Below are positions 2,308-11,627 of a stretch of 64,000 bases of DNA, one piece after another (position 1 is the first letter of the stretch; each line of letters begins with the position of its first letter). The notes beneath the pieces are model-generated. The model did no database searches. It had not been told where the DNA came from and saw nothing but the letters and a program-made list of their open reading frames with translations. Source of the stretch: Thermoplasmatota archaeon (lineage in GTDB: Archaea > Thermoplasmatota > Poseidoniia > Poseidoniales > Thalassarchaeaceae); contig JAURCP010000006.1 of assembly GCA_030828405.1 (NCBI GenBank), positions 12,015-76,014 on the forward strand, given 5' to 3'. A program made the position numbers and the translations under genes.

Positions 2308-3468
2308 GTGATTCTGAAGTGTATGCATCCGGAACAACTACGCAGGGTTATACTAAGGATTGTAACATCTCTTATGAATCTCATAATTGGCCCTTCAGGT
2401 GCTTGGTATGCTCTTGGATTAGAAGGTCTGTGCTTGTACATTATCGTTAATGTATTTACTAAATCTGTAGTTGCAGAGATTTCGGCTCTAAACGAAAAGA
2501 TATCTAGATTGGGATATAGAATATCTCCTATCTTTCTGATTTCTGCAGGTTTCTTGCCACTTATCTCATCCAACTGGTATACTTTTGTGATTCTTATACC
2601 TATTCTATTGGCAACATATGTGGGATTATTTTGGACAGGCTTTCATGGAATTAGAAAACTAAGAACTTTAAAAACTGAAAGAGAATCAGTAAGATCCTTT
2701 CAACATTATGAAATTGTAAGTACTTTATTGGCTGCTTTTTTAGTTTTATTTCTTAAACAAGTTGAGATGGTAAGTTATGCTGGATATATAGGCTCGATTC
2801 TAGCTTTCATTGCATTGGTAATTCCAATGAAAATAGGTGAAGGGACAATCAGAATATCAAGTGGCGATATGTTAAATCAAGAAGTAATACTTGCAAGATT
2901 AACCACAGGTTCTTTCGGAATCATTGGTTTTTCGACAGTTTGGTGTATGAGGATAATTGCTTTGGAATACGCAGGAATTTCAGGGATTGCGGGGATGGTG
3001 GCTCTTTCCAGTTTAGGAGGACATATTATATCTAATTTGAATGATAAAAAACTGAGGCCAGAATCGGCTGATAATAAAAACTGGATATGGGGGACTAACA
3101 TAGTAATAACTGGTATTCTTATTATGATTGGAAGTTTAATTTTAAGGCTTGAAGAATTTTTCCTAACTGGTTATCTGATTACAAGAGGGGGCACGTCTGG
3201 TATTTTACATCCTTTAGAAGTAAGAATTTCTGGAGAATTATTAATCGGAGATGGAGGTGAAATTGGGCTAAGAGAGAGAATAAAATTCAGAACACAAACA
3301 AAAATTATGTTTTTTTATATTATCTGCAATTATATGTTGTACAATATAATTGGAGAAATTAATCTTATTTTATTAGTCTTATTGCCTTTGATAACATCAT
3401 TATATTGTTGTAAGTTAAATTTGGAGATTATTGATTACTTAAAGACTCACCAACGGGTGCAAGGTTGA
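2308..3468 (+). CDS. Polytopic integral membrane protein (hypothetical)
   Basis: 386 aa with many predicted TM helices. No recognisable catalytic motif. Confidence 0.5.
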   Translation: MILKCMHPEQLRRVILRIVTSLMNLIIGPSGAWYALGLEGLCLYIIVNVFTKSVVAEISALNEKISRLGYRISPIFLISAGFLPLISSNWYTFVILIPILLATYVGLFWTGFHGIRKLRTLKTERESVRSFQHYEIVSTLLAAFLVLFLKQVEMVSYAGYIGSILAFIALVIPMKIGEGTIRISSGDMLNQEVILARLTTGSFGIIGFSTVWCMRIIALEYAGISGIAGMVALSSLGGHIISNLNDKKLRPESADNKNWIWGTNIVITGILIMIGSLILRLEEFFLTGYLITRGGTSGILHPLEVRISGELLIGDGGEIGLRERIKFRTQTKIMFFYIICNYMLYNIIGEINLILLVLLPLITSLYCCKLNLEIIDYLKTHQRVQG

Positions 3469-5251
3469 GTTTAGATTTAGATAATTCCAATTTAATTTTA
3501 TTTTTTCTAGAATAAAGAAATAAACTCTGAGATTTAGGTTTATTTAATCCAGTAAATTCGCCAAACATTTCTCCTACTAGATGTAACTTAATTTTGTTAT
3601 TCTTACCCAATTCTTCAATATCTAAAATCCAACTAAATATCAAACTTCGAAAAATATTATCGTTACTTTTTGGATTCTCAAGAGCGGTATCTATCGAGAG
3701 TTCGGCTCTTAAAAGAAAATTATCAATCTCTGATAGGAATATTTTCATTTCTCCTAAAATTTCTTTAGATAATTCGTTTTCTAATTCAGAGCGATCTTCT
3801 GTCCAGATACTAGATCTGAATGTTGTATTCTGATAATTTTCTTTCCAGTTCTTATTTGTTATCCTTGAATCACTTAAGAATGAATTAATCTTCATGAAAA
3901 GTTGTGCTATTATTACTGATATATTGATTATTCCTGTGTAATTATTCTTACTTTCTTGAATATTTAACGCTGATTTAGCGAATCTTATTTCTTTTAATAC
4001 ACTCTCAATTATACTGCTAGTTTCATTTCGAACTATAGATTCCCTGAAACCTGAATCTTTAGGAGATGAACGATTGAAATCCAATCTGACAACTTTCATT
4101 GTTGTAGTTTTACAATAGAAATTTGTAAGATTCTTTGCTTCTGAACCAATGGTTGTAGATAAAAACGATTTAATAATCAGCCTCTTTTCTTCTTTTTTAT
4201 CTGTTTTTATCCTGTTTGAGGGGTTATTTTGATGTTCCAATAACACATCGAGACAATTCAGAATATATCCAGATTTCTTTTCTGATGACTCAAGATTTTT
4301 TCTTTCTTTCATTTCCATGTTTTCAAAATATTTATTTAAATCAGGATTTAGTGTCTTTCTAAAATCCCTAATTTTCTCTTCTATTTCATGTACTGGTTGA
4401 AGCCTAATTTTCTTATTTTTCCTCAATACCCATAATGACCACCAATAGTAGGCCTTGGCCCATACAGAATCATCTTCACGACATAATTCATCCATTTTTT
4501 TAATATAAGAAAATATATTCTTATAATCAGTTTCCCAATTATTACCAGATGGAATTAACCTTCTATTATTAGTCAAGTGGTATTGCATTAAAATTAACAT
4601 ATCAAGATGCTCAGTTTTTGTAGCACTATTATTGCGTATAGCTTTAAACCCATTTTTACTTTTCAAATTATCAAACTTAAACCAAGCAGCATCTAAAATT
4701 TTGTCAATTAATTCAAGAACTTCGGGGTTCTCAGAAAAACCCACACGAATTCTTCTGACCTGTTGTATTTTCGCTACAATCAGATATGTTGCGCAAATAT
4801 CTTTTGTTTCAACACCGTGTAATTTTTGTGTAATTTTCGATCTGAAATAATAACTATTGATTAAATCCTGTAAAGAATCTCTAGTGTAAGGATCATCTAT
4901 TTGCTGAAACCATTCATTCAAACATGGCCTTAATAATTTGTAACTACCCTCTGGATGGATTAAGTTATGTGATTGACCTATTAATCCCGATATATCACGT
5001 CTATTCCTTGAAGTGAAATTTATTATCAGCATTGAATCCTCAACACCGAAGTAATCTACCATGATTTTAAAGCTCTCTAAGGCTGATAATTTTGTTTTAG
5101 GTTCAGTGGTTAAATCTGAAAATGATTTATTATATTGCTCTGCAGCCTTAGCCCAATAAAGAATTAAATCTTTACTAAATTTATCTCTTTTCTCATTGTT
5201 AGAATAATGGAGATTACAGAAATCTTCACAACTTAACCTCTTGGACACCAT
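3428..5251 (-). CDS. Large hypothetical protein (607 aa, Lys/Asn-rich), flanks the accessory island
   Basis: Long intact ORF with very AT-rich codon usage and no motif I recognise. Confidence 0.5.
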   Translation of the reverse strand: MVSKRLSCEDFCNLHYSNNEKRDKFSKDLILYWAKAAEQYNKSFSDLTTEPKTKLSALESFKIMVDYFGVEDSMLIINFTSRNRRDISGLIGQSHNLIHPEGSYKLLRPCLNEWFQQIDDPYTRDSLQDLINSYYFRSKITQKLHGVETKDICATYLIVAKIQQVRRIRVGFSENPEVLELIDKILDAAWFKFDNLKSKNGFKAIRNNSATKTEHLDMLILMQYHLTNNRRLIPSGNNWETDYKNIFSYIKKMDELCREDDSVWAKAYYWWSLWVLRKNKKIRLQPVHEIEEKIRDFRKTLNPDLNKYFENMEMKERKNLESSEKKSGYILNCLDVLLEHQNNPSNRIKTDKKEEKRLIIKSFLSTTIGSEAKNLTNFYCKTTTMKVVRLDFNRSSPKDSGFRESIVRNETSSIIESVLKEIRFAKSALNIQESKNNYTGIINISVIIAQLFMKINSFLSDSRITNKNWKENYQNTTFRSSIWTEDRSELENELSKEILGEMKIFLSEIDNFLLRAELSIDTALENPKSNDNIFRSLIFSWILDIEELGKNNKIKLHLVGEMFGEFTGLNKPKSQSLFLYSRKNKIKLELSKSKLNLAPVGESLSNQ

Positions 5252-5659: not shown

Positions 5660-5746
5660 ATGGGATTTCTAAAATGGCTTTTACTCGGATCAGGTGCTGC
5701 TTACTTTGAACACACAGTAAGCGGTGACGATGACGATGATTGTTAA
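5660..5746 (+). CDS. Small hydrophobic peptide 1 (28 aa, MGFLKWLLLGSGAAYFEHTVSGDDDDDC)
   Basis: AAGGAG SD sits 9 nt upstream of the ATG. N-terminal MGF/LL motif is shared with two downstream paralogs. Below the 60-aa track threshold. Confidence 0.5.
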   Translation: MGFLKWLLLGSGAAYFEHTVSGDDDDDC

Positions 5747-5799
5747 CGTAAAAATAAATAAAAAATGACTTTCTAAATGAATAGGAATTTAGAGTTCGC

Positions 5800-5816
5800 A
5801 TCTCGGACACAGAGAT
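5800..5816 (+). promoter_or_regulatory. Conserved hairpin atctc-ggacaca-gagat upstream of peptide 2
   Basis: 5-bp stem with a 7-nt loop. The paralogous copy upstream of peptide 3 (gcctc-gggtaca-gaggc) keeps pairing through compensatory changes. Confidence 0.45.
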
Positions 5817-5840
5817 AAAAATACAAGGAGTGTGATAAAA

Positions 5841-5963
5841 ATGGGTTTGTTTAGAGCATTGTTCTGGACGGGAGCTACAATAGCGACTGGAGGATTGGCG
5901 CTTGCTTTGCTTCCAAACGACTGGGACGGTATAGACGGATATGACGGTGGCTGTGACGAATAA
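5841..5963 (+). CDS. Small hydrophobic peptide 2 (40 aa, MGLFRALFWTGATIATGGLALALLPNDWDGIDGYDGGCDE)
   Basis: ACAAGGAGTGTGATA SD context nearly identical to peptide 3. TM-like N-terminus, acidic C-terminus with Cys. Confidence 0.55.
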   Translation: MGLFRALFWTGATIATGGLALALLPNDWDGIDGYDGGCDE

Positions 5964-6026
5964 TCGCCACATACACTGTTTCGCAAATGCGATGACTTGC
6001 AGGATGAATATGGATCTTGCCCCCGT

Positions 6027-6043
6027 GCCTCGGGTACAGAGGC
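6027..6043 (+). promoter_or_regulatory. Conserved hairpin gcctc-gggtaca-gaggc upstream of peptide 3
   Basis: Same position and shape as the 5800-5816 hairpin, with compensatory base changes. Confidence 0.45.
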
Positions 6044-6069
6044 GACACAAACAAGGAGCGTGATATGTT

Positions 6070-6186
6070 ATGGGATTGCTAAAAGCAATCGTAGGCGGAA
6101 CTGTTGGTTTGGTCGTGGGCACAATGACTTGTGCACCAATCACTGGAATGATTGGTGGTGCATTTGTAGCTCAAGACTGGGAATAG
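6070..6186 (+). CDS. Small hydrophobic peptide 3 (38 aa, MGLLKAIVGGTVGLVVGTMTCAPITGMIGGAFVAQDWE)
   Basis: ACAAGGAGCGTGATA SD 11 nt upstream. Gly-rich TM helix, acidic C-terminus. Confidence 0.55.
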   Translation: MGLLKAIVGGTVGLVVGTMTCAPITGMIGGAFVAQDWE

Positions 6187-6281
6187 TTCAATGATTACAT
6201 GTGTAAATGTTGGCATGATAATGACATTTGAGAAGGTGCAAGACCTGGAAAAAAATATGAAGAAGGAAAGGAGGTAACGTA

Positions 6282-6491
6282 ATGGGAAACATAACGACAA
6301 AAGTCGAAATTGCTGACCATACGGGGCACACCACCGCTTTATTGACTCAGAGAGAGACTGTTGATCTCGTATCTGACAATGAGCGTTGGGTTTTCGCTGG
6401 AGGACAAATGATTGAGCCAGAAGAATTGGCTGAAGCAGATTGGTCTACAGTTGGAACCGTGAGAGTGATGCCGCGTATTGTGTTCGGTTGA
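6282..6491 (+). CDS. 69-aa protein, possible ThiS/MoaD-like beta-grasp (ends ...MPRIVFG)
   Basis: AGGAGGT SD. Length and the C-terminal pattern (hydrophobic-x-hydrophobic-FG) resemble sulfur-carrier/Ubl proteins. Higher GC than surrounding genes. Confidence 0.45.
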   Translation: MGNITTKVEIADHTGHTTALLTQRETVDLVSDNERWVFAGGQMIEPEELAEADWSTVGTVRVMPRIVFG

Positions 6492-6583
6492 TTGGCTGAT
6501 TATTTGCTCGAAAGAGCCCGGATTAACGTAAGTCAAGATAGGGTATACTCTATGTTGATGCAAAATAAAAAGGAGAAAATAAA

Positions 6584-7087
6584 ATGGAAACAAAACAAAT
6601 AAATAATGAAAAAATAATAGAAAATGAAATAGATTGGAAACAACACATACGAGATGTGCATAATGATATGGCAGATGATATAGAATATCTCTTCCCTAAC
6701 AATTCCACTGAAGCCTTTATGACAGCAATATGGAAAATGTCTGTTGACTTATTAGAAAGGATAGAAGTGATGGTCATCGTCGATAATAAAGATGATTTGT
6801 ATATCAGTAGCGGCACACCATCGTTAGTCTCGTTCAAAGATCATGAGGATGAATTAAAAATTGGAGATAAAATGAAGTTGCCACTGAAATGTTGCATCCA
6901 TACACACCCTTCAGGTAAAGCATACTTTAGCGATACTGATTGGAATACAATTAACACATGGAAGAGCGATATTGAATCATGCATTGTACTAGGTAAAAAT
7001 GAATATTTAGCATATAATCCTAAATCTAAATTAGCTAAAATGGTTCACTATGGGCTTCTTGAGAACAATTTGAGAGGTGAGCAATAA
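6584..7087 (+). CDS. JAB/JAMM (MPN+) metallopeptidase domain protein
   Basis: Canonical JAMM motif HTHPSGKAYFSDTD (HxHx7Sx2D). AAAGGAG SD. First gene of the coupled operon. Confidence 0.75.
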   Translation: METKQINNEKIIENEIDWKQHIRDVHNDMADDIEYLFPNNSTEAFMTAIWKMSVDLLERIEVMVIVDNKDDLYISSGTPSLVSFKDHEDELKIGDKMKLPLKCCIHTHPSGKAYFSDTDWNTINTWKSDIESCIVLGKNEYLAYNPKSKLAKMVHYGLLENNLRGEQ

Positions 7088-7311
7088 TGATTGAGGATTT
7101 AGTTATGAAAGATGATATTAGAATGATTATTGAATTAATAGAAGATAAGGGGTATGATTTAGATGAGGAAACAATTTCCTCATTAACAAAATATATTGAA
7201 ACAAATTTATCTTCATTGTGCAGAATCAATGAAATTTTAACTGGTATTACTGCTTACAAGAATCTTATCAAACAGGAAGAAGAAAAAATCGAAAGTTTAG
7301 GTGGTGTTTAA
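7087..7311 (+). CDS. 74-aa protein ending in LGGV; candidate conjugation tag or adaptor
   Basis: Start overlaps the JAB stop (TAATG). C-terminal diglycine followed by one residue. Predicted largely helical, so the fold is uncertain. Confidence 0.5.
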   Translation: MIEDLVMKDDIRMIIELIEDKGYDLDEETISSLTKYIETNLSSLCRINEILTGITAYKNLIKQEEEKIESLGGV

Positions 7312-8076
7312 ATGGATATTAACGAAGAAGAATATACGCCAGAGAGAAAGAATGGAATTTTCAGATTTAGTATTCCTAATTTAGATGCACACAATAAATC
7401 ACTTGAATGGATTGAGTCTGAGAGGAAAAGAATGGGGGCGGAAATTGATTGTATGTTAGAGGATGGATACGACTCAAGTAGGAAATGTCATATTTATGTC
7501 AATGGGAGAGAGTCTGGAATTAATTATAGATTGACATTATCTTTTGAATCTAAAATTGCAAATCTATTATCTAAAAGAATTAATGAAGTTGAATTGAGTG
7601 ATAGAAATCTAAAATCAATTTTATTCACATTTCAAAAATTGATTCATTTCGAAACACATTGGTATGATCATTCGGAAGGGCGCTGGCAGCATATTTGCTT
7701 AGATGTGAAACCTTCTGTTAATCATCCATTTTGGCCAGGAGACCATATTGTTTCTGTAATGAATTGTTTGTCTGAAGACATGACTTCAGTACTTGATAGA
7801 GATATGAAAACTTTAAGAAAAGCAATGACTAAAGCACTTGTAGTCAGTTGGTTCCAAGGCGATAATTCAGATATTATGGGATTTAATAAGGTAAGTCAAT
7901 ATGTAGAGTGGTTAATTCAATTAGAAGAAACAGATAGTGAATTTTCATTTGCAAATAAGAGAGATTTGATTTTAAAAAATATAAAAAATGATTGGGGATA
8001 TTGGGTAGAATCACAAAAAACAAAGCAAATGAAGTTATATGAAAACGTGTTTTCTAGTTTGGAGGAATATCAATGA
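7312..8076 (+). CDS. E2 (UBC)-like protein
   Basis: NHPFWPGDHIVSVMNCL resembles the UBC HPN...C(L) active-site region. It starts immediately after the stop of the upstream gene, and GGTGGTG acts as an SD. Confidence 0.45.
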   Translation: MDINEEEYTPERKNGIFRFSIPNLDAHNKSLEWIESERKRMGAEIDCMLEDGYDSSRKCHIYVNGRESGINYRLTLSFESKIANLLSKRINEVELSDRNLKSILFTFQKLIHFETHWYDHSEGRWQHICLDVKPSVNHPFWPGDHIVSVMNCLSEDMTSVLDRDMKTLRKAMTKALVVSWFQGDNSDIMGFNKVSQYVEWLIQLEETDSEFSFANKRDLILKNIKNDWGYWVESQKTKQMKLYENVFSSLEEYQ

Positions 8077-8744
8077 AAGATGTACTGGATATAGCAATAG
8101 TTGGAGTTGGAGGGATTGGTTCGAACCTCGCATCATTAATTGTGCCATCTCTATCTCAAGGAGATTTATCACAGAGATTTTCAAAAATAAATATCAATCT
8201 ATATGATTCAGATGAAGTCGAAGAAGAAAATATATTTCATCAGAGATTTAATCAATCAAATATCGGTGAAACAAAAGTTTTGGCTACAAAGAAAAACTTA
8301 TCATCTTTTGAGCATGATAAATTAGAAATCGTCCCACATGGAAAGGATGTTCGAGAGAAAGAAGATATTGAAGATAATGACCTAATAGTGGTTTGTGTAG
8401 ATTCTTCAGATGCTAGGATAGTAGTTCATTCAACAAACTCAAAATGGTTAGATCTAAGATGTAGAGGAGATAATTTCATGAGTATAGATTATACTACAAA
8501 GAAAAATATTATCAAATCAATTACCGATATCGACCAAAAACCCGGTTCTTGTCAGTATGAGGGAGCTTTAGAATCAGGTAATATTCAATTTGGTTTCATG
8601 TACGCTGCATCCTTTGGGGCTCAATGGGTGATACAAAACCTTAGAGGAGAAAATGAAGGAAATAATGTGTTGATGCCTTATCCAAGATCAGAAAGTATAA
8701 CATTTGGGACATTAGGTAATTTTGAGAAAGAGGAGGGAAGTTAA
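8073..8744 (+). CDS. Minimal E1-like (ThiF/MoeB/UBA superfamily) adenylyltransferase
   Basis: IAIVGVGGIGSNLA Rossmann motif, DSDEVEEENIFHQRF (D-D-V-E..N..Q) adenylation motif, LIVVCVDSSDARIVV, and a PGSC cysteine. ATGA overlap with the E2-like gene. Only 223 aa and lacks CxxC zinc motifs. Confidence 0.65.
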   Translation: MKDVLDIAIVGVGGIGSNLASLIVPSLSQGDLSQRFSKININLYDSDEVEEENIFHQRFNQSNIGETKVLATKKNLSSFEHDKLEIVPHGKDVREKEDIEDNDLIVVCVDSSDARIVVHSTNSKWLDLRCRGDNFMSIDYTTKKNIIKSITDIDQKPGSCQYEGALESGNIQFGFMYAASFGAQWVIQNLRGENEGNNVLMPYPRSESITFGTLGNFEKEEGS

Positions 8745-8896
8745 TGTCTTGGATAGTTAGGTGTGCATTTTGTGATGAGAAAATTACTATTGGTAAAAAT
8801 CAGTTCAAGAAAGACAAAAATCCATTAACTGAAGAAAGTGAATATGTATGTGCTCATTGTTATCAATCTTTTATTGGCGATCTAGACTCTTATTAA
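8744..8896 (+). CDS. 50-aa zinc-ribbon protein (CAFC...CAHC), not in the ORF track
   Basis: ATG overlaps the E1-like stop (TAATG). Two CxxC pairs spaced about 26 residues apart. 3' end overlaps the convergent gene by about 26 nt. Confidence 0.45.
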   Translation: MSWIVRCAFCDEKITIGKNQFKKDKNPLTEESEYVCAHCYQSFIGDLDSY

Positions 8897-9587
8897 CGTC
8901 GAAAGTTCTCATCTGATCTACAGTCCAATTCTTGGTCCTAGGCCTCCAGAAAATAATAGTAAATACTCCAATAAATAAACCGCCGAAGATAAGATTAAGC
9001 CATCCCTCTGAAATATATCCAGGACTAGCATTAAAGCTTGCCCAAATAAATGATGGAATAATTCCAAATATTAATGAGATAATTAATTCTTCAGATAATA
9101 ACTTATATTTATCAGGTGAGATTGGTAATTTTGGTGCTGTATTCTCAAAATTATTTGAGTTTTTTCTTCGAACTACTCTAAAGAAGTCACAATTTTCTCC
9201 CTTAGGAATCAAAGAAGGATTAGGAGTTCCTGAAACCCATTTTTTTGAAACTTTCATTAACCAATTATCCTCTATAAAGGGCCTACCATCACAATATTTC
9301 GACCAATAAGAACCTCGAATTCTATCTGATAACTCCTCAACTTCATCATTCCCAGAAATCAGACCACTATCCATTGCAAGAGTCCACTCAGATTCTGAGG
9401 CTACATGGCAGTTTTCATTTCGGAGAATAGTTTTCATGGTTCCAGAATCTACTGGCAGATAAGATATTTCAAAATCATAATCAATTTTGACTTCATGCCT
9501 AGGACCGACTCCTCCAAAAAGTATTGAACGATTATCTGAACCAATGAATACTTTTCCTGGATAGACAGTTACCCATTGAATTTCCAA
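8871..9587 (-). CDS. FGE-sulfatase (SUMF1)-like domain protein with C-terminal TM anchor
   Basis: N-terminal WVTVYPGKVFIGSD and C-terminal RGSYW...GENCDFFRVVRR resemble the FGE-sulfatase fold signature. Two C-terminal hydrophobic helices. Confidence 0.4.
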   Translation of the reverse strand: MEIQWVTVYPGKVFIGSDNRSILFGGVGPRHEVKIDYDFEISYLPVDSGTMKTILRNENCHVASESEWTLAMDSGLISGNDEVEELSDRIRGSYWSKYCDGRPFIEDNWLMKVSKKWVSGTPNPSLIPKGENCDFFRVVRRKNSNNFENTAPKLPISPDKYKLLSEELIISLIFGIIPSFIWASFNASPGYISEGWLNLIFGGLFIGVFTIIFWRPRTKNWTVDQMRTFDVNKSLDRQ

Positions 9588-9598
9588 TTTTATCCCAC

Positions 9599-11500
9599 CT
9601 AGGGTTCAATTTCTCCAGTTTGTATTGACCATTGAGACGCATAAACACTTTCATTTATGAGTAGATCTTCATGCTTACCTCTTTCAACAATTGCTCCATC
9701 AACCATTGAAATTATTTCATCAGCATTTCTGATTGTAGCAAGTCTATGAGCCACTGCTATTGTAAGTCGGTTCTTTTTACCATTTGAACCACCGAAAAGT
9801 GACTGTTGTATCCTCTTCTCAGTTTCAGCATCCAGTGCAGCACTAGCTTCATCTAAAATAAGAAGGTCTGGGTCATTCAATAGAGCCCTGGCAAGGCTAA
9901 TTCGTGCTCTTTGGCCTCCAGATAACATCACTCCTCTATCGCCCACCATTGATTCTAGTCCATCAGGTAATTGAGTAATAAATTCTGACGCACCTGCCAT
10001 ATCTAGCGCATTGAATATTTCCTCATCCGTAGCATCTCTTGCATAGGAAACATTTTGCTTGATAGTCCCGTAAAAAAGGAATGGATCTTGAGAAACAAAT
10101 CCAATTTTAGATCTTACAGATTTTATGGAATAATCATTGATATCTTTTCCATTAATGAGCACTTTACCATGTTGTGGTTCATAGAATCTCTCAATTAACT
10201 TCAGTATTGTACTCTTACCTGCTCCTGTATGGCCCATTACTCCCAAGAATTCTCCAGAAGAAACCTTCAAATCTATTTTGTTAAGTACATTTGATTCAGA
10301 AGAAGGATATGAAAAAGACACATCCTCAAAGGAAATACTTTCAATTGGCTCCTCAAGTGTTAGTGCGTCCTCCTTGTCATAAATCGAAGGTTCAAGATCA
10401 ACAACAGCGAAAACTCTCCGTGAAGCAGCCTCTCCTTTCTGTAATTGATTTAGTAACATCCCTAGAATCCATAAAGGCATAGTCATTCTAGTAGATATCA
10501 GTAAGAATGTTACAAACTCGCCCACACTTATTTCACTGGAATTCATTAGCCACCCTCCAGCTGAAACTAATAGTCCGAATGAAATACCCGCTACAATATG
10601 AAACCCAGGAATAAAACGATTTCTGATGAAAGCTGCTTCTATAGCTTGGTCCCGATAATTGCCACTTTGTCCCTCAATTCTAACTCTTTCAAAATCACTG
10701 GCATTATATGCTTGAACCACAGTAATTCCAGATAATACGTTTTCTAATATTGCTACTATTCCGCCTGTACTTTCTCTTTGTTGACGATACTTTCTCTGGA
10801 CTCTGGTAGAAAACCAAATAACCATAGGAACAATCATGAATAATGGCCCAAAGAGAATCATACAAAGTGTTGGAGACATCCAGAAAAGAATAACAAATGC
10901 GGTACTAAGGGTTGTTATTATCCTGATTATACTAGTAGTTGAATCTGAAATAATATCTTCCAACTGCGCTACATCAGCAGATAGTACAGACATCAAGTTT
11001 CCAGTCTGTCGGGTTTCAAAGTATGATGCCTCCATATCCATCAAAGATTTTGTAGCATCCATCCTAATATCATGCTGAGCTTTGTAAGCTATTGACTGCC
11101 AAAGTTGATTGCTTAGACCCTGGAAAATTGCAAGAAAAACGAAGGATGAAAAGATAAGTAAACCAAAGCCAAGCTCTGTGGACTCGATTGGTCCAAGATT
11201 AGGTATTGAATCGAGTGTAACAATTTTTTCAATTCTTGAATTAGTAAATTGAGAGTTATCTGGGTTGTAGTAATCGGCTGCCATACCTATTGCAATAAAG
11301 GGGACAAGGTCGAAAATTCTAGCTCCGATATTTGCTAGAAGACCGCCTAAAGCCCTCTCCCAATATCTAGTCACATAAGGCAGAATTCTCCAAATTTTTC
11401 GGCCCACTATTTGCTTCTCTTCAACAAGGTCAGAAGCATCTTTACTGATTGAAGATACTATAACTTCCTTAGTTGGATCCTGGCTATCGGCTTTCGACAT
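9599..11500 (-). CDS. ABC exporter, fused permease + ATPase (MsbA/multidrug/peptide exporter type)
   Basis: Six-TM N-terminal domain, Walker A GHTGAGKST, ABC signature LSGGQRARISLARAL, Walker B LILDEASAALD. Confidence 0.85.
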   Translation of the reverse strand: MSKADSQDPTKEVIVSSISKDASDLVEEKQIVGRKIWRILPYVTRYWERALGGLLANIGARIFDLVPFIAIGMAADYYNPDNSQFTNSRIEKIVTLDSIPNLGPIESTELGFGLLIFSSFVFLAIFQGLSNQLWQSIAYKAQHDIRMDATKSLMDMEASYFETRQTGNLMSVLSADVAQLEDIISDSTTSIIRIITTLSTAFVILFWMSPTLCMILFGPLFMIVPMVIWFSTRVQRKYRQQRESTGGIVAILENVLSGITVVQAYNASDFERVRIEGQSGNYRDQAIEAAFIRNRFIPGFHIVAGISFGLLVSAGGWLMNSSEISVGEFVTFLLISTRMTMPLWILGMLLNQLQKGEAASRRVFAVVDLEPSIYDKEDALTLEEPIESISFEDVSFSYPSSESNVLNKIDLKVSSGEFLGVMGHTGAGKSTILKLIERFYEPQHGKVLINGKDINDYSIKSVRSKIGFVSQDPFLFYGTIKQNVSYARDATDEEIFNALDMAGASEFITQLPDGLESMVGDRGVMLSGGQRARISLARALLNDPDLLILDEASAALDAETEKRIQQSLFGGSNGKKNRLTIAVAHRLATIRNADEIISMVDGAIVERGKHEDLLINESVYASQWSIQTGEIEP

Positions 11501-11552: not shown

Positions 11553-11627
11553 TGGTGCGCCCGCCGGGATTTGAACCCGGGACATGAGGTTGGAAACCTC
11601 AGGTGATAACCCCTTCACTACAGGCGC
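11553..11627 (-). tRNA. tRNA-Gly (anticodon TCC)
   Basis: Cloverleaf folded by hand: acceptor gcgcctg/cgggcgc, anticodon loop tttccaa, T-arm ccggg-ttcaaat-cccgg, 3' CCA encoded. Confidence 0.7.

What the first reader, a model, noticed from the sequence alone, without database searches (positions are those of the whole stretch)
6282..6491. 69-aa SD-led ORF with ThiS/MoaD-like C-terminus (…VRVMPRIVFG) immediately upstream of the JAB-E2-E1 operon
Size, charge pattern and the C-terminal hydrophobic-Gly ending resemble beta-grasp sulfur-carrier/Ubl proteins. It is therefore an alternative, perhaps better, candidate for the conjugated tag. Its GC is visibly higher than the downstream operon, and it uses a strong AGGAGGT SD. 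Both features suggest foreign origin.
Basis: inference. Interest (0 to 1): 0.6.

Follow-up and report, generated by a model that had tools for sequence, protein, structure and literature searches.

The report
Ubiquitin-like tag gene in marine archaeon
The 69-codon gene is real and encodes a small ubiquitin-like protein, most likely the tag used by the activating enzyme and peptidase genes beside it; this protein family from abundant, uncultured ocean archaea (Marine Group II) matches no curated family I searched, although the system is of a kind already known from bacteria.

Summary
The ORF at 6282-6491 (+) is confirmed: 69 aa, ATG start, AGGAGGT six bases upstream, ending …RIVFG.

- **Fold.** AlphaFold2 gives a beta-grasp topology (pLDDT 82.4). 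Foldseek hits are almost all ubiquitin-like domains, but none is significant.
- **Family.** A profile search found 168 matching sequences, about 147 of them family members. No Pfam, NCBIfam or PADLOC model matches.
- **Terminal Gly.** It is the only invariant column. It is kept in all 120 domain copies that reach the profile end, followed by 0-3 residues, another repeat or an enzyme domain.
- **Linkage.** An E1 (ThiF) homologue follows the gene in all 24 fetched loci (19 non-redundant). The 17 loci from named genomes are Poseidoniales, apart from two short contigs binned as Acidiferrobacter. Relatives occur as 2-3 head-to-tail repeats and as fusions to the E1 or to the 254-aa protein.
- **Closest sequence.** Ubiquitin scores better than ThiS or MoaD in hhalign (85% vs 31% and 1.5%), but NEDD8 scores only 1.8%.

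The tag reading is supported. Not established: that the 254-aa protein is an E2 (invariant Cys, no fold or sequence match), the target, the biological role, and "foreign origin". On origin, high GC and a roughly 720-bp recombination-like tract are real, but the gene belongs to the system everywhere. I class it as a new variant of Bil/Bub-type (Iyer 6d/6e) systems, here in archaea.

The parts
6269..6275 (+). Shine-Dalgarno-like AGGAGGT, six bases before the start codon
   Evidence: Read directly. The same motif is conserved in relatives, where over-long gene calls translate it as 'KKGG' (L001 DNA).
6282..6491 (+). Ubl69: a 69-aa beta-grasp ubiquitin-like protein, the proposed conjugated tag. 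Its C-terminal Gly69 codon is at 6486-6488, directly followed by the stop.
   Evidence: ORF. AF2 beta-grasp model. Foldseek hits to ubiquitin-like domains. Invariant terminal Gly. Linkage to E1. Fusions and poly-Ubl forms.
6584..7087 (+). JAB/JAMM metallopeptidase (167 aa) with an HTHPSGKAYFSDTD motif (HxHx7Sx2D). Proposed to be the deconjugase here, and the precursor-processing enzyme in relatives.
   Evidence: Pfam Prok-JAB, E 2.1e-5, 24.8 bits, just under the 25-bit cut-off. The motif is read. In most relatives this domain is fused to the C-terminus of the E1.
7087..7311 (+). 74-aa protein of unknown fold ending LGGV, found only in close relatives. Its role is unknown and it is not a detectable Ubl relative.
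   Evidence: The family is narrow (63-96% identity) and every full-length member ends LGG[VI]. hhalign finds no similarity to the Ubl family or to the 79-aa family of other loci. The last codons, TTAGGTGGTGTT, form an SD-like sequence for the next gene.
7312..8076 (+). 254-aa protein with invariant Cys129 (codon 7696-7698) and near-invariant His138. It is the candidate E2-like carrier, but that assignment is unproven.
   Evidence: Alignment A4 gives the invariant residues W125, C129, D144 and T167-L168-R169. The domain is fused behind the Ubl in P0099 and P0161. The AF2 model has pLDDT 66.9. There is no Foldseek, PDB, Pfam, NCBIfam or PADLOC match. hhalign against UbcH5, Ubc9 and Ubc13 gives 0.2% probability but puts Cys129 on the E2 catalytic Cys.
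8073..8744 (+). E1-like adenylating enzyme (223 aa). It has a single ThiF domain, a GxGGIGS nucleotide loop and invariant Cys160 in an SCQ motif (codon 8550-8552).
   Evidence: Pfam ThiF 2.3e-13. PADLOC E1-E2 (Cap2) 7e-12. NCBIfam PRTRC_ThiF 1e-12, below its cut-off. The family profile hits UBA6, UBA5, UBA1, MccB, NAE, SAE2, MoeB and Cap2 in the PDB.
8744..8896 (+). 50-aa CxxC…CxxC zinc-ribbon protein, the last gene of the operon
   Evidence: Only weak Zn-ribbon matches. It is 98% identical in L007. The role is not tested. Iyer's 6e operons also carry a small metal-binding protein (PMC1779556).
5661..6186 (+). Three SD-led micro-ORFs: 5661-5747 (28 aa), 5842-5964 (40 aa) and 6070-6186 (38 aa). 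Each has a hydrophobic core and an acidic tail. Their association with the system is possible but not shown.
   Evidence: Read. Their GC3 is 0.36-0.62. The 40-aa peptide family (…TGGLALALLPNDWDGIDG…) recurs beside Ubl clusters in L001, L007, L008 and L023.
6020..6740 (.). Tract of 89-98% nucleotide identity to genome L008, against about 60-80% on either side. It covers the third micro-ORF, Ubl69, the spacer and the 5' end of the JAB gene.
   Evidence: Sliding identity. dS is 0.07 for Ubl69 and the micro-ORF, against 0.56-1.0 for JAB, the 74-aa gene and the E2-like gene.

Best explanation
Ubl69 is a ubiquitin-like beta-grasp protein and the tag of a small conjugation system encoded by the five genes that follow it.

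Proposed steps:
1. Ubl69 is made already mature, with Gly69 as its last residue. (Shown.)
2. The 223-aa single-domain E1 adenylates Gly69 with ATP and may take the tag onto its invariant Cys160. (Inferred from family membership and conservation.)
3. The tag passes to invariant Cys129 of the 254-aa protein, which acts like an E2. (Inferred from context and fusions only.)
4. The tag ends up on an amino group of an unknown target. (Inferred by analogy with Bil and Bub systems.)
5. The JAB peptidase removes the tag. In relatives, where the tag is made with 1-3 extra residues, as 2-3 head-to-tail repeats or fused to the E1 or E2-like domain, the JAB cuts after the Gly to release it. (Inferred; shown experimentally only for bacterial BilC and BubCD.)

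The host is a Marine Group II (Poseidoniales) archaeon. The biological role is unknown. A conflict, defence or mobile-element function is my best guess, and a weak one.
For: - **Fold.** The AF2 model has a beta-grasp topology, pLDDT 82.4 and pTM 0.62. The leading Foldseek hits in PDB and in viral structures are mostly ubiquitin, SUMO and ubiquilin-type domains.
- **Sequence.** The family profile finds only ubiquitin and polyubiquitin chains in the PDB, aligned end to end, WVFAG… on LIFAGKQL… and Gly on Gly. It reaches eukaryotic polyubiquitins in the 1.8-billion-protein library. hhalign gives ubiquitin 84.9%, ThiS 30.9% and MoaD 1.5%.
- **Terminal Gly.** It is the only invariant column and is kept in 120 of 120 domain ends.
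- **Linkage.** An E1 homologue follows on the same strand in all 24 loci, 19 of them non-redundant.
- **Fusions.** Relatives include Ubl-Ubl-E1 (P0021), Ubl-E1 (P0044) and Ubl-'E2-like' (P0099, P0161). Poly-Ubl forms have LVGG plus a linker between repeats (P0020, P0023, P0024, P0028, P0029).
- **Enzymes.** E1 membership is supported. The catalytic-type Cys residues are invariant in the E1 and the 254-aa protein. The JAMM motif is intact.
- **Precedent.** Experiments on the same gene sets in bacteria show that Bil Ubls have a universally conserved Gly followed by up to nine residues that the JAB removes (PMC10557695). BubCD cleaves the Ubl-E2 fusion after the conserved Gly (PMC11601596).
Against: - No step has been tested biochemically.
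- The structural matches are weak: best E 0.016 in PDB and 0.003 in BFVD, TM 0.4-0.6. The model rests on 14 sequences.
- The ubiquitin affinity is not robust: NEDD8 scores 1.8% and SAMP2 25%. The polyubiquitin E-values are inflated by identical repeats.
- The window's tag ends in Phe-Gly, not Gly-Gly.
- The 254-aa protein has no detectable similarity to any E2. It was not found in any of the other 14 non-redundant loci. Six of these carry 8 kb of upstream flank (three of them 8 kb on both sides) and the rest are short contigs. The core system may therefore work without an E2, as SAMP/UbaA does.
- No target, E3 or defence-type neighbour was identified. PADLOC matched only the E1.
Confidence: 0.75

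Rival explanations
1. Ubl69 is a sulfur carrier of the ThiS, MoaD, CysO or QbsE type. The E1 adenylates Gly69, which becomes a thiocarboxylate that donates sulfur to a cofactor, tRNA or small molecule. The JAB trims the C-terminal extension (as QbsD does for QbsE) or releases the product (as Mec+ does for CysO). No protein is tagged.
For: - The beta-grasp fold and C-terminal Gly are shared with these carriers.
- hhalign to ThiS is not nil, at 30.9%.
- The E1's NCBIfam matches include ThiF and MoeB models.
- Most relatives have only Ubl, E1::JAB and a small helical protein, with no E2-like gene.
- Ubl, JAB and E1 trios in sulfur chemistry are described in PMC1779556.
- Archaeal SAMPs serve as both sulfur carriers and protein tags (established knowledge).
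Against: - None of the operon proteins I scanned has a rhodanese, ThiG/ThiH, MoaE, CysM or other sulfur-pathway domain.
- Head-to-tail poly-Ubl genes and Ubl fusions to a Cys-bearing non-E1 domain are known from conjugation systems (6e/Bub), not from sulfur carriers.
- Ubiquitin scores better than ThiS or MoaD.
- All E1 scores are far below the ThiF and MoeB equivalog cut-offs.
Confidence: 0.12
2. The 74-aa protein ending LGGV (7087-7311) is the species the E1 activates, much as Cap2 activates the C-terminus of its cyclase in CBASS. Ubl69 would then be an accessory or regulatory beta-grasp protein.
For: All full-length homologues of the 74-aa protein end in LGG plus one residue (V or I), which resembles the LVGG-X ends of the Ubl relatives. 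The gene sits inside the operon, between the JAB and the 254-aa gene.
Against: - The family is shallow (63-96% identity), so conservation of GG says little.
- The GG codons (GGTGGTG) double as the SD-like sequence for the gene that starts right after its stop codon.
- hhalign finds no relation to the Ubl family.
- tblastn found the gene only in L007 and L008, whereas the Ubl-E1 pair is present in every locus.
- The 79-aa proteins that follow the E1::JAB in other loci do not end in Gly and are not detectably related.
Confidence: 0.05
3. Ubl69 is a beta-grasp domain that is never conjugated. It could be a binding or regulatory subunit of the E1 and JAB enzymes, or a relic of a phage tail-assembly (lambda TAPI-like) ubiquitin-like domain.
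For: Many beta-grasp domains are not conjugated. One family member gives a sub-threshold match to Lambda_tail_I (E 3.6e-4). Some BFVD hits are tail-tip proteins.
Against: - A non-conjugated domain would not be expected to keep an invariant Gly exactly at the C-terminus or at repeat and fusion junctions.
- No tail or virion genes lie in the neighbourhood.
- IMG/VR and GenBank phages gave no match.
Confidence: 0.05

Closest known systems
Bil systems (BilABCD; Iyer et al. 2006 operon types 6d and 6c; PMC1779556, PMC10557695)
   Same: The gene set matches: a small Ubl, a JAB peptidase, a Cys-bearing E2-position protein and an E1. Type 6d also has 'a novel alpha-helical protein', which the 74-aa protein might match; its fold was not predicted. 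The Ubl has one universally conserved Gly followed by a few variable residues that the JAB trims. The E2-position protein has a conserved His a few residues after the Cys (Cys129 and His138 here; Cys138 and His151 in BilB). Some Ubls have up to three beta-grasp domains.
   Different: BilD is a large pseudo-dimeric E1 (IAD-AAD-CYS). The E1 here is a 223-aa single adenylation domain. No sequence model links any of the proteins to Bil, and the E2 fold is not demonstrated. The host is an archaeon, whereas the studies I read describe Bil operons from bacteria.
Bub systems (Iyer type 6e / DUF6527 operons; PMC11601596, PMC11601603)
   Same: Shared features are Ubls with 1-3 beta-grasp repeats, Ubl-E2 fusion precursors, peptidase and E1 fused in one protein, a single-domain E1, and a small metal-binding protein in 6e.
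   Different: Bub works through Ser oxyesters and its E1 lacks a catalytic Cys. Here Cys is invariant in both the E1 and the E2-position protein. No DUF6527 (BubE) protease was found among the proteins scanned. The fusion order is E1-JAB, not JAB-E1.
Archaeal SAMP / UbaA / HvJAMM1 system (Haloferax)
   Same: It is archaeal and combines a small beta-grasp tag ending in Gly, a single-domain E1 and a JAMM deconjugase. Most relatives of this locus also lack any E2-like gene.
   Different: SAMPs are ThiS/MoaD-type and double as sulfur carriers. UbaA scores far below its cut-off for the related E1::JAB protein (25 vs 450 bits) and was not among the matches for the window's own E1. No poly-Ubl or fusion precursors are known to me for SAMPs.
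Caldiarchaeum subterraneum and Asgard ubiquitin operons (PMC3082918, PMC5654768, PMC6043591)
   Same: These are archaeal operons with a ubiquitin-like tag made as a precursor, an E1, an E2 and an Rpn11/JAB peptidase that matures the tag.
   Different: Those proteins are recognisably eukaryote-type (Pfam ubiquitin, UQ_con, RING). Here neither the tag nor the E2-position protein matches any Pfam family, and no RING was found.
ThiS/MoaD sulfur carriers
   Same: The beta-grasp fold, the small size, the C-terminal Gly and the ThiF-family partner.
   Different: The window's protein ends in FG rather than GG. There are no sulfur-pathway neighbours. The hhalign scores are lower than for ubiquitin. Poly-Ubl precursors and fusions are present, and there is a Cys-bearing partner protein.
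Eukaryotic polyubiquitin genes
   Same: Relatives encode 2-3 head-to-tail tag copies, each ending in GG, with one or more extra residues after the last copy (P0020, P0024, P0028). The WVFAG(D/G)xM segment aligns with LIFAGKQL.
   Different: Short linkers (for example VDEP or SDEA) separate the repeats. Identity to ubiquitin is only about 30% over 57 columns, and its statistical support is borderline and inconsistent.

Membership tests
Ubiquitin-like beta-grasp modifier (Ubl) superfamily | Beta-grasp fold (b-b-a-b-b-(helix)-b) | tested here: met
   The AF2 model has pLDDT 82.4, with elements E5-12, E15-22, H23-31, E35-39, E42-44, short helices and E60-64. Foldseek top hits are Ubl domains but weak: E at least 0.016 in PDB and at least 0.003 in BFVD.
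Ubiquitin-like beta-grasp modifier (Ubl) superfamily | Flexible C-terminal tail ending in a conserved Gly, exposed or followed by a removable extension | tested here: met
   Gly69 is the only invariant column of 24 diverse members. All 120 domain ends keep it, followed by 0-3 residues, another repeat or an enzyme domain.
Ubiquitin-like beta-grasp modifier (Ubl) superfamily | Dedicated E1-type adenylating enzyme as genomic partner | tested here: met
   An E1 homologue follows on the same strand in 24 of 24 loci. Ubl-E1 fusions are P0021 and P0044.
Ubiquitin-like beta-grasp modifier (Ubl) superfamily | Covalent attachment to target proteins | not testable with these tools
   This needs biochemistry or mass spectrometry.
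ThiS/MoaD sulfur-carrier proteins | Match to ThiS or MoaD sequence families | tested here: not met
   No Pfam or NCBIfam match at E up to 1. hhalign gives ThiS 30.9% and MoaD 1.5%.
ThiS/MoaD sulfur-carrier proteins | Neighbourhood with thiamine, molybdopterin or sulfur-transfer genes (ThiG, MoaE, rhodanese) | tested here: not met
   No such domains in the operon proteins or in the scanned proteins of relatives. The rest of the genome was not examined.
Bil (BilABCD) systems | Operon with Ubl, E2, JAB and E1 | tested here: inconclusive
   Ubl, JAB and E1 are present. The E2 position is filled by a 254-aa protein with an invariant Cys, whose E2 fold is not supported.
Bil (BilABCD) systems | [quoted passage not shown] | tested here: not met
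   The E1 is 223 aa with one ThiF domain. The defining architecture is taken from PMC10557695.
Bub (6E/DUF6527) systems | DUF6527 serine protease (BubE) in the operon | tested here: not met
   The Pfam scan of all six operon proteins and of the scanned L001 proteins shows none.
Bub (6E/DUF6527) systems | Catalysis through Ser oxyesters, with an E1 lacking a catalytic Cys | tested here: not met
   Cys160 (E1) and Cys129 (254-aa protein) are invariant. The chemistry itself cannot be tested here.
Bub (6E/DUF6527) systems | Ubl-E2 fusion precursor and peptidase-E1 fusion | tested here: inconclusive
   Not in the window, where the genes are separate. Relatives have Ubl-'E2-like' fusions (P0099, P0161) and E1-JAB fusions, the latter in the reverse domain order.
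CBASS Cap2/Cap3 | E2-E1 fusion acting on a CD-NTase encoded alongside | tested here: not met
   Only the E1 part matches the PADLOC E1-E2 models (residues 7-119). No cyclase gene is present in the operon.
PRTRC (ParB-related, ThiF-related cassette) | E1 reaching the TIGR03736 cut-off | tested here: not met
   47.9 bits against a cut-off of 144.75.

The most novel reading that the evidence does not exclude
Marine Group II archaea carry a previously undescribed, self-contained ubiquitin-type conjugation system. On this reading its tag is a closer sequence relative of eukaryotic ubiquitin than ThiS, MoaD or the SAMPs are. The tag is often encoded as polyubiquitin-style head-to-tail precursors. 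In several genomes the system travels in a module with a T7-like single-subunit RNA polymerase, TFIIB-like zinc-ribbon proteins and conserved membrane micro-peptides. That would make it an archaeal mobile or conflict module combining tagging and transcription functions, and it would bear on how polyubiquitin-type genes arose.
Probability: 0.15. Interest if true: 0.8.

Novelty: new variant of a known kind. Interest (0 to 1): 0.6.

Why it matters
Poseidoniales are the most abundant archaea of the surface ocean and have never been cultured. Full-text searches of the paper library for Poseidoniales or Marine Group II together with ubiquitin returned nothing on an E1-linked ubiquitin-like tag. One survey mentions only RING and UCH genes in a single-cell genome (PMC4327156).

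Protein tagging of the ubiquitin type was shown to work in bacteria only in 2023-2024, in the Bil, Bub and CBASS systems. A distinct archaeal family would widen the known range of these systems in three ways:
- a minimal single-domain E1;
- conserved Cys residues in place of Bub's Ser;
- precursors built like polyubiquitin.

It also gives a compact set of five to six small genes that can be tested directly in E. coli. The sequence resemblance to ubiquitin itself, if it holds up, is relevant to where ubiquitin and polyubiquitin genes came from.

Tried and rejected
**Searches that found nothing**
- Pfam, NCBIfam and PADLOC give no family for Ubl69, the 74-aa protein or the 254-aa protein.
- IMG/VR contigs and GenBank phages have no relative of Ubl69, so a viral origin has no direct support.

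- The diverse alignment A3 was too variable for the search for related loci, so I used A2.

**E2 test for the 254-aa protein: inconclusive**
- Foldseek found no UBC-fold hit, and the PDB profile search found nothing.

**The 74-aa protein as tag**
- No similarity to the Ubl family or to the 79-aa family of other loci.
- Its conserved GG is explained equally well by the overlapping SD-like sequence.

**Ubiquitin-specific kinship**
- The ubiquitin score is not matched by NEDD8, so I do not claim it.

**Ideas rejected**
- *Double-glycine leader peptide exported by the neighbouring ABC transporter.* The Gly is C-terminal, not at a leader junction, and the orthologous transporter in L007 (98% identical) shows no peptidase domain.
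- *Lambda TAPI-type tail protein.* One sub-threshold hit only, and no tail genes.
- *SD as a sign of foreign origin.* SD-like motifs precede all genes of the cluster.
Full report
**1. Observation**

AGGAGGT lies at 6269-6275, six bases before the start. A 92-base spacer separates it from a run of five abutting or overlapping genes:
- 6584-7087, a 167-aa JAB peptidase (Pfam Prok-JAB 2.1e-5) with an intact HxHx7Sx2D motif;
- 7087-7311, a 74-aa protein ending LGGV;
- 7312-8076, a 254-aa protein with no family match;
- 8073-8744, a 223-aa E1 (ThiF 2.3e-13; PADLOC Cap2-type E1-E2 7e-12);
- 8744-8896, a 50-aa zinc ribbon.

GC of the ORF is 0.471 (GC3 0.414). The window averages 0.369, and the downstream genes are 0.27-0.34 (GC3 about 0.20-0.30). 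The ORF is at the 98.9th percentile of 210-bp windows.

**2. A real, conserved gene**

A word-seeded search found 19 homologues, all from marine metagenomes. An exhaustive profile search of 1.84 billion representatives found 168 proteins at E up to 1e-3, 58 of them at 1e-10 or better. Twenty-one of the 168 are eukaryote-type polyubiquitins.

dN/dS against the two nearest genomes is 0.09-0.29. Over-long gene calls in the databases start with 'KKGG', which is simply the translated, conserved Shine-Dalgarno sequence.

**3. Fold**

AlphaFold2 on a 14-sequence alignment gave pLDDT 82.4 and pTM 0.62. The order of elements is strand 5-12, strand 15-22, helix 23-31, strand 35-39, strand 42-44, two short helices, strand 60-64 and a five-residue tail. 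This is the beta-grasp topology.

Foldseek against the PDB returned mostly ubiquitin-like domains: ubiquilin, Dsk2, SUMO, di-ubiquitin, BAG6 and Ufm1. Against viral models it returned giant-virus ubiquitin-like proteins and phage tail-tip beta-grasp domains. The numbers are weak (best E 0.016 and 0.003, TM 0.4-0.6). I therefore treat the fold as well supported by topology and by the uniformity of the hits, not by any single score.

**4. Sequence affinities**

No Pfam, NCBIfam or PADLOC model matches the protein or 23 diverse relatives. The one exception is a sub-threshold Lambda_tail_I hit, and that family is itself a ubiquitin-like domain.

A family profile searched against all PDB sequences returned ubiquitin and polyubiquitin chains plus one designed binder. 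E-values were 0.05-1.5. The ubiquitin alignments run end to end, with WVFAG(D/G)xM on LIFAGKQL and the terminal Gly on Gly76.

hhalign of the family gave these probabilities:

| Partner | Probability |
|---|---|
| Ubiquitin | 84.9% (E 6.4e-6, 30% identity over 57 columns) |
| ThiS | 30.9% |
| SAMP2 | 25% |
| NEDD8 | 1.8% |
| MoaD | 1.5% |

The family is therefore ubiquitin-like rather than ThiS/MoaD-like by sequence, but the NEDD8 result shows the preference is not robust. The polyubiquitin E-values are inflated by identical repeats.

**5. The terminal glycine**

In an alignment of 24 diverse single-domain members (down to 29% identity), Gly69 is the only invariant column. The residue before it is Gly in most members and Phe, Tyr or Ala in some. 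The window belongs to the Phe-Gly group.

With a local HMM, all 120 domain copies that reach the profile end keep this Gly. What follows is one of:
- nothing or a few residues (I, K, E, C, Y, QI, GNQ and others);
- another copy of the domain;
- an enzyme domain.

This is the signature of a tag that is activated at its C-terminus and is often made as a precursor.

**6. Linkage to the enzymes**

A scan of one genome per species (GTDB) gave 17 loci. All are labelled Poseidoniales, Thalassarchaeaceae or 'Methanobacteriota archaeon', except two short contigs binned as Acidiferrobacter. L008 is a single-cell genome with a 96% identical protein. L007 is a 106-kb metagenome contig syntenic with the window and carries fibrillarin, Nop, TFS and PCNA genes. 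The host is therefore a Marine Group II archaeon.

tblastn shows an E1 homologue downstream on the same strand in all 24 loci, of which 19 are non-redundant.
- The commonest layout is one or two Ubl copies, then an E1::JAB fusion of about 410-440 aa, then a 79-aa helical protein. A TFIIB-like zinc-ribbon protein and two large proteins often follow on the other strand.
- The 254-aa protein has homologues in six of the 20 distinct places, counting the window: window, L007, L008, L001, L010 and L020.

Fusion proteins tie the parts together:
- Ubl-Ubl-E1 (P0021) and Ubl-E1 (P0044);
- Ubl-'254-aa domain' (P0099, P0161);
- poly-Ubl with two or three repeats, each ending LVGG plus a short linker (P0020, P0023, P0024, P0028, P0029).

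**7. The enzymes**

*E1.* The family profile hits UBA6, UBA5, UBA1, MccB, NAE, SAE2, MoeB, Uba4 and Cap2 in the PDB. It has a GxGGIGS loop and an invariant Cys in an SCQ motif (Cys160), plus a near-invariant Cys130. At 223 aa it is a single adenylation domain. Its best NCBIfam match is PRTRC_ThiF, far below the cut-off.

*The 254-aa family.* It has an invariant Cys129 in a W-x3-C-[LI] context and a near-invariant His138. Its AF2 model has pLDDT 66.9. The secondary-structure order is helix, three strands, two inserted helices, two strands, the Cys, a loop and then helices, which is compatible with a UBC fold carrying an insert.

Foldseek found nothing and the PDB profile search found nothing. 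hhalign against three eukaryotic E2s gave 0.2% probability, although it aligned FETHWYDHSEGRWQHICLD with FTTRIYHPNINSNGSICLD. I therefore call it a candidate E2, unproven.

**8. The rival tag**

The 74-aa protein and all its full-length homologues end in LGG[VI]. Three points weaken it as a tag:
- The family is shallow (63-96% identity).
- It has no detectable relation to the Ubl family or to the 79-aa proteins of other loci. Those 79-aa proteins do not end in Gly.
- Its last codons (TTAGGTGGTGTT) make the SD-like sequence for the gene that starts right after its stop codon.

The Ubl-E1 pair is universal, whereas tblastn found the 74-aa gene only in the window's closest relatives, L007 and L008.

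**9. 'Foreign origin'**

The GC-rich block is wider than the ORF. It runs from about 5660 to 6500 and includes three SD-led micro-ORFs.

Against genome L008, dS is 0.07 for Ubl69 and for the adjacent micro-ORF. It is 0.91, 1.0 and 0.56 for the JAB, the 74-aa gene and the 254-aa gene. A sliding comparison shows 89-98% identity from about 6020 to 6740, spacer included, against roughly 60-80% outside.

That pattern fits a recent recombination or transfer tract better than protein-level constraint. So this piece has its own history. Even so, a Ubl gene sits in front of the E1 in every relative, so it is not an add-on to the system. The SD argument fails because the whole cluster uses SD-like motifs.

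**10. How it most likely works**

1. Ubl69 is made mature, ending in Gly69. (Shown.)
2. The E1 adenylates Gly69 and perhaps forms a thioester at Cys160. (Inferred.)
3. The tag moves to Cys129 of the 254-aa protein. (Inferred from context and fusions.)
4. The tag moves on to an unknown target. (Inferred by analogy.)
5. The JAB reverses the tagging, and in relatives it releases the tag from GG-X ends, poly-Ubl or fusions. (Shown experimentally only for bacterial BilC and BubCD: PMC10557695; PMC11601596.)

Because most relatives lack the 254-aa gene, the core may work with the E1 alone, as archaeal SAMP/UbaA does. A sulfur-carrier role cannot be excluded. It is less likely given the poly-Ubl genes, the fusions, the Cys-bearing partner protein and the absence of sulfur-pathway domains.

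**11. Comparison with what is known**

The gene content of the window matches Iyer, Burroughs and Aravind's operon type 6d: Ubl, JAB, E1, E2-like and 'a novel alpha-helical protein'. The relatives match type 6e: poly-Ubl, an E2/RWD-like domain sometimes fused to the Ubl, JAB fused to E1, and a metal-binding protein (PMC1779556). These types are now called Bil and Bub (PMC11601603; PMC11601596).

The system here is not a member of either family as defined:
- Bil requires a tandem-domain E1 with a CYS insertion.
- Bub uses Ser oxyesters and a DUF6527 protease and has the JAB-E1 order.
- Here the E1 is a single domain, Cys residues are invariant, no DUF6527 is present, and the order is E1-JAB.

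Full-text searches of the paper library for Poseidoniales or Marine Group II together with ubiquitin returned nothing on this family. A check of one further paper on lineage-specific archaeal proteins also found no mention.

**12. Verdict**

The finding is a new, unannotated family of ubiquitin-like tags. The system is a new variant of the Bil/Bub kind, found in Marine Group II archaea. The target, the role and the E2 identity remain open.

Noticed in passing
window 5661-5747, 5842-5964, 6070-6186 (+): Three tiny ORFs (28, 40 and 38 aa) each follow an AAGGAG-type motif and start with Met-Gly. Each has a hydrophobic core and an acidic tail, for example MGLFRALFWTGATIATGGLALALLPNDWDGIDGYDGGCDE. 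Their GC3 is 0.36-0.62 against about 0.22 nearby. The 40-aa peptide is almost unchanged beside Ubl clusters whose Ubl is only about 53-64% identical (L001 7562-7681, L023 481-603), and it also occurs in L007 and L008. They may be membrane micro-proteins linked to the system.
   Followed up: partly
L001 2590-6609 (+); L008 2133-4943 (-); L020 524-4363 (-): A T7/mitochondrial-type single-subunit RNA polymerase (1339 aa; Pfam RNA_pol 1.7e-46) lies next to the Ubl cluster in three Marine Group II contexts, one of them a 451-kb single-cell genome contig. The library search I ran for single-subunit RNA polymerases in Poseidoniales found no paper holding both terms. In the window the same slot holds an unrelated 607-aa ORF (3428-5251, -) with no family match.
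   Followed up: partly
window 6020-6740: This roughly 720-bp tract is 89-98% identical to genome L008, while the flanks are about 60-80% identical. dS is 0.07 inside the tract and 0.56-1.0 in the downstream genes. It looks like a recent recombination or transfer tract with its right edge inside the JAB gene.
   Followed up: yes
L001 8589-16954 and the matching parts of L009, L011, L015, L017, L020: Most relatives share a larger conserved cluster: a protein of about 240 aa, one or two Ubl copies, an E1::JAB fusion, a 79-aa helical protein ending …WR(x)NQ(T/S), a TFIIB-type zinc-ribbon protein, and two large proteins (640 and 571 aa, no Pfam match) on the opposite strand. In L001 about 9.4 kb carrying the polymerase, an HNH gene in some copies, the micro-peptides, the E2-like gene and a second Ubl copy sits between a 168-aa gene and the Ubl. 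In L012 and L014-L017 and L019 that 168-aa gene directly abuts the Ubl.
   Followed up: partly
window 7297-7311: The last codons of the 74-aa gene (TTA GGT GGT GTT TAA, giving …LGGV) form an SD-like GGTGGTG for the 254-aa gene, which starts right after the stop codon. The conserved 'GG' end of that protein may therefore reflect a translation signal rather than a ubiquitin-like tail.
   Followed up: partly
L007 9692-9910: The otherwise 98% identical Ubl copy in this metagenome contig has indels near its 3' end that replace the last nine residues (…TVSQGDAAYCVSVD). This is either an assembly error or an inactivated copy.
   Followed up: no
window 11553-11627 (-) and 8871-11500 (-): A tRNA-Gly(TCC) gene lies just beyond the ABC transporter (633 aa) and a 238-aa membrane-anchored protein that bound the cluster on the right. 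The stretch between the glycosyltransferase (1171-2259) and the micro-ORFs differs between the window, L007 and L008, so this is a variable region. I did not test whether it is an integrated element.
   Followed up: no
P0026, P0061, P0042 (database proteins); L024 605-1753: A further uncharacterised domain of about 300 aa (…NNI(V/L)I(L/F)GDL(A/G)SYCI…) is fused behind one or two Ubl copies in some proteins. A similar sequence (…HKNIIIIGDLALYAIPI…, compared by eye only) occurs as a separate gene about 0.9 kb upstream of the Ubl in L024. It has no Pfam match and could be another enzyme or the target of the system.
   Followed up: no
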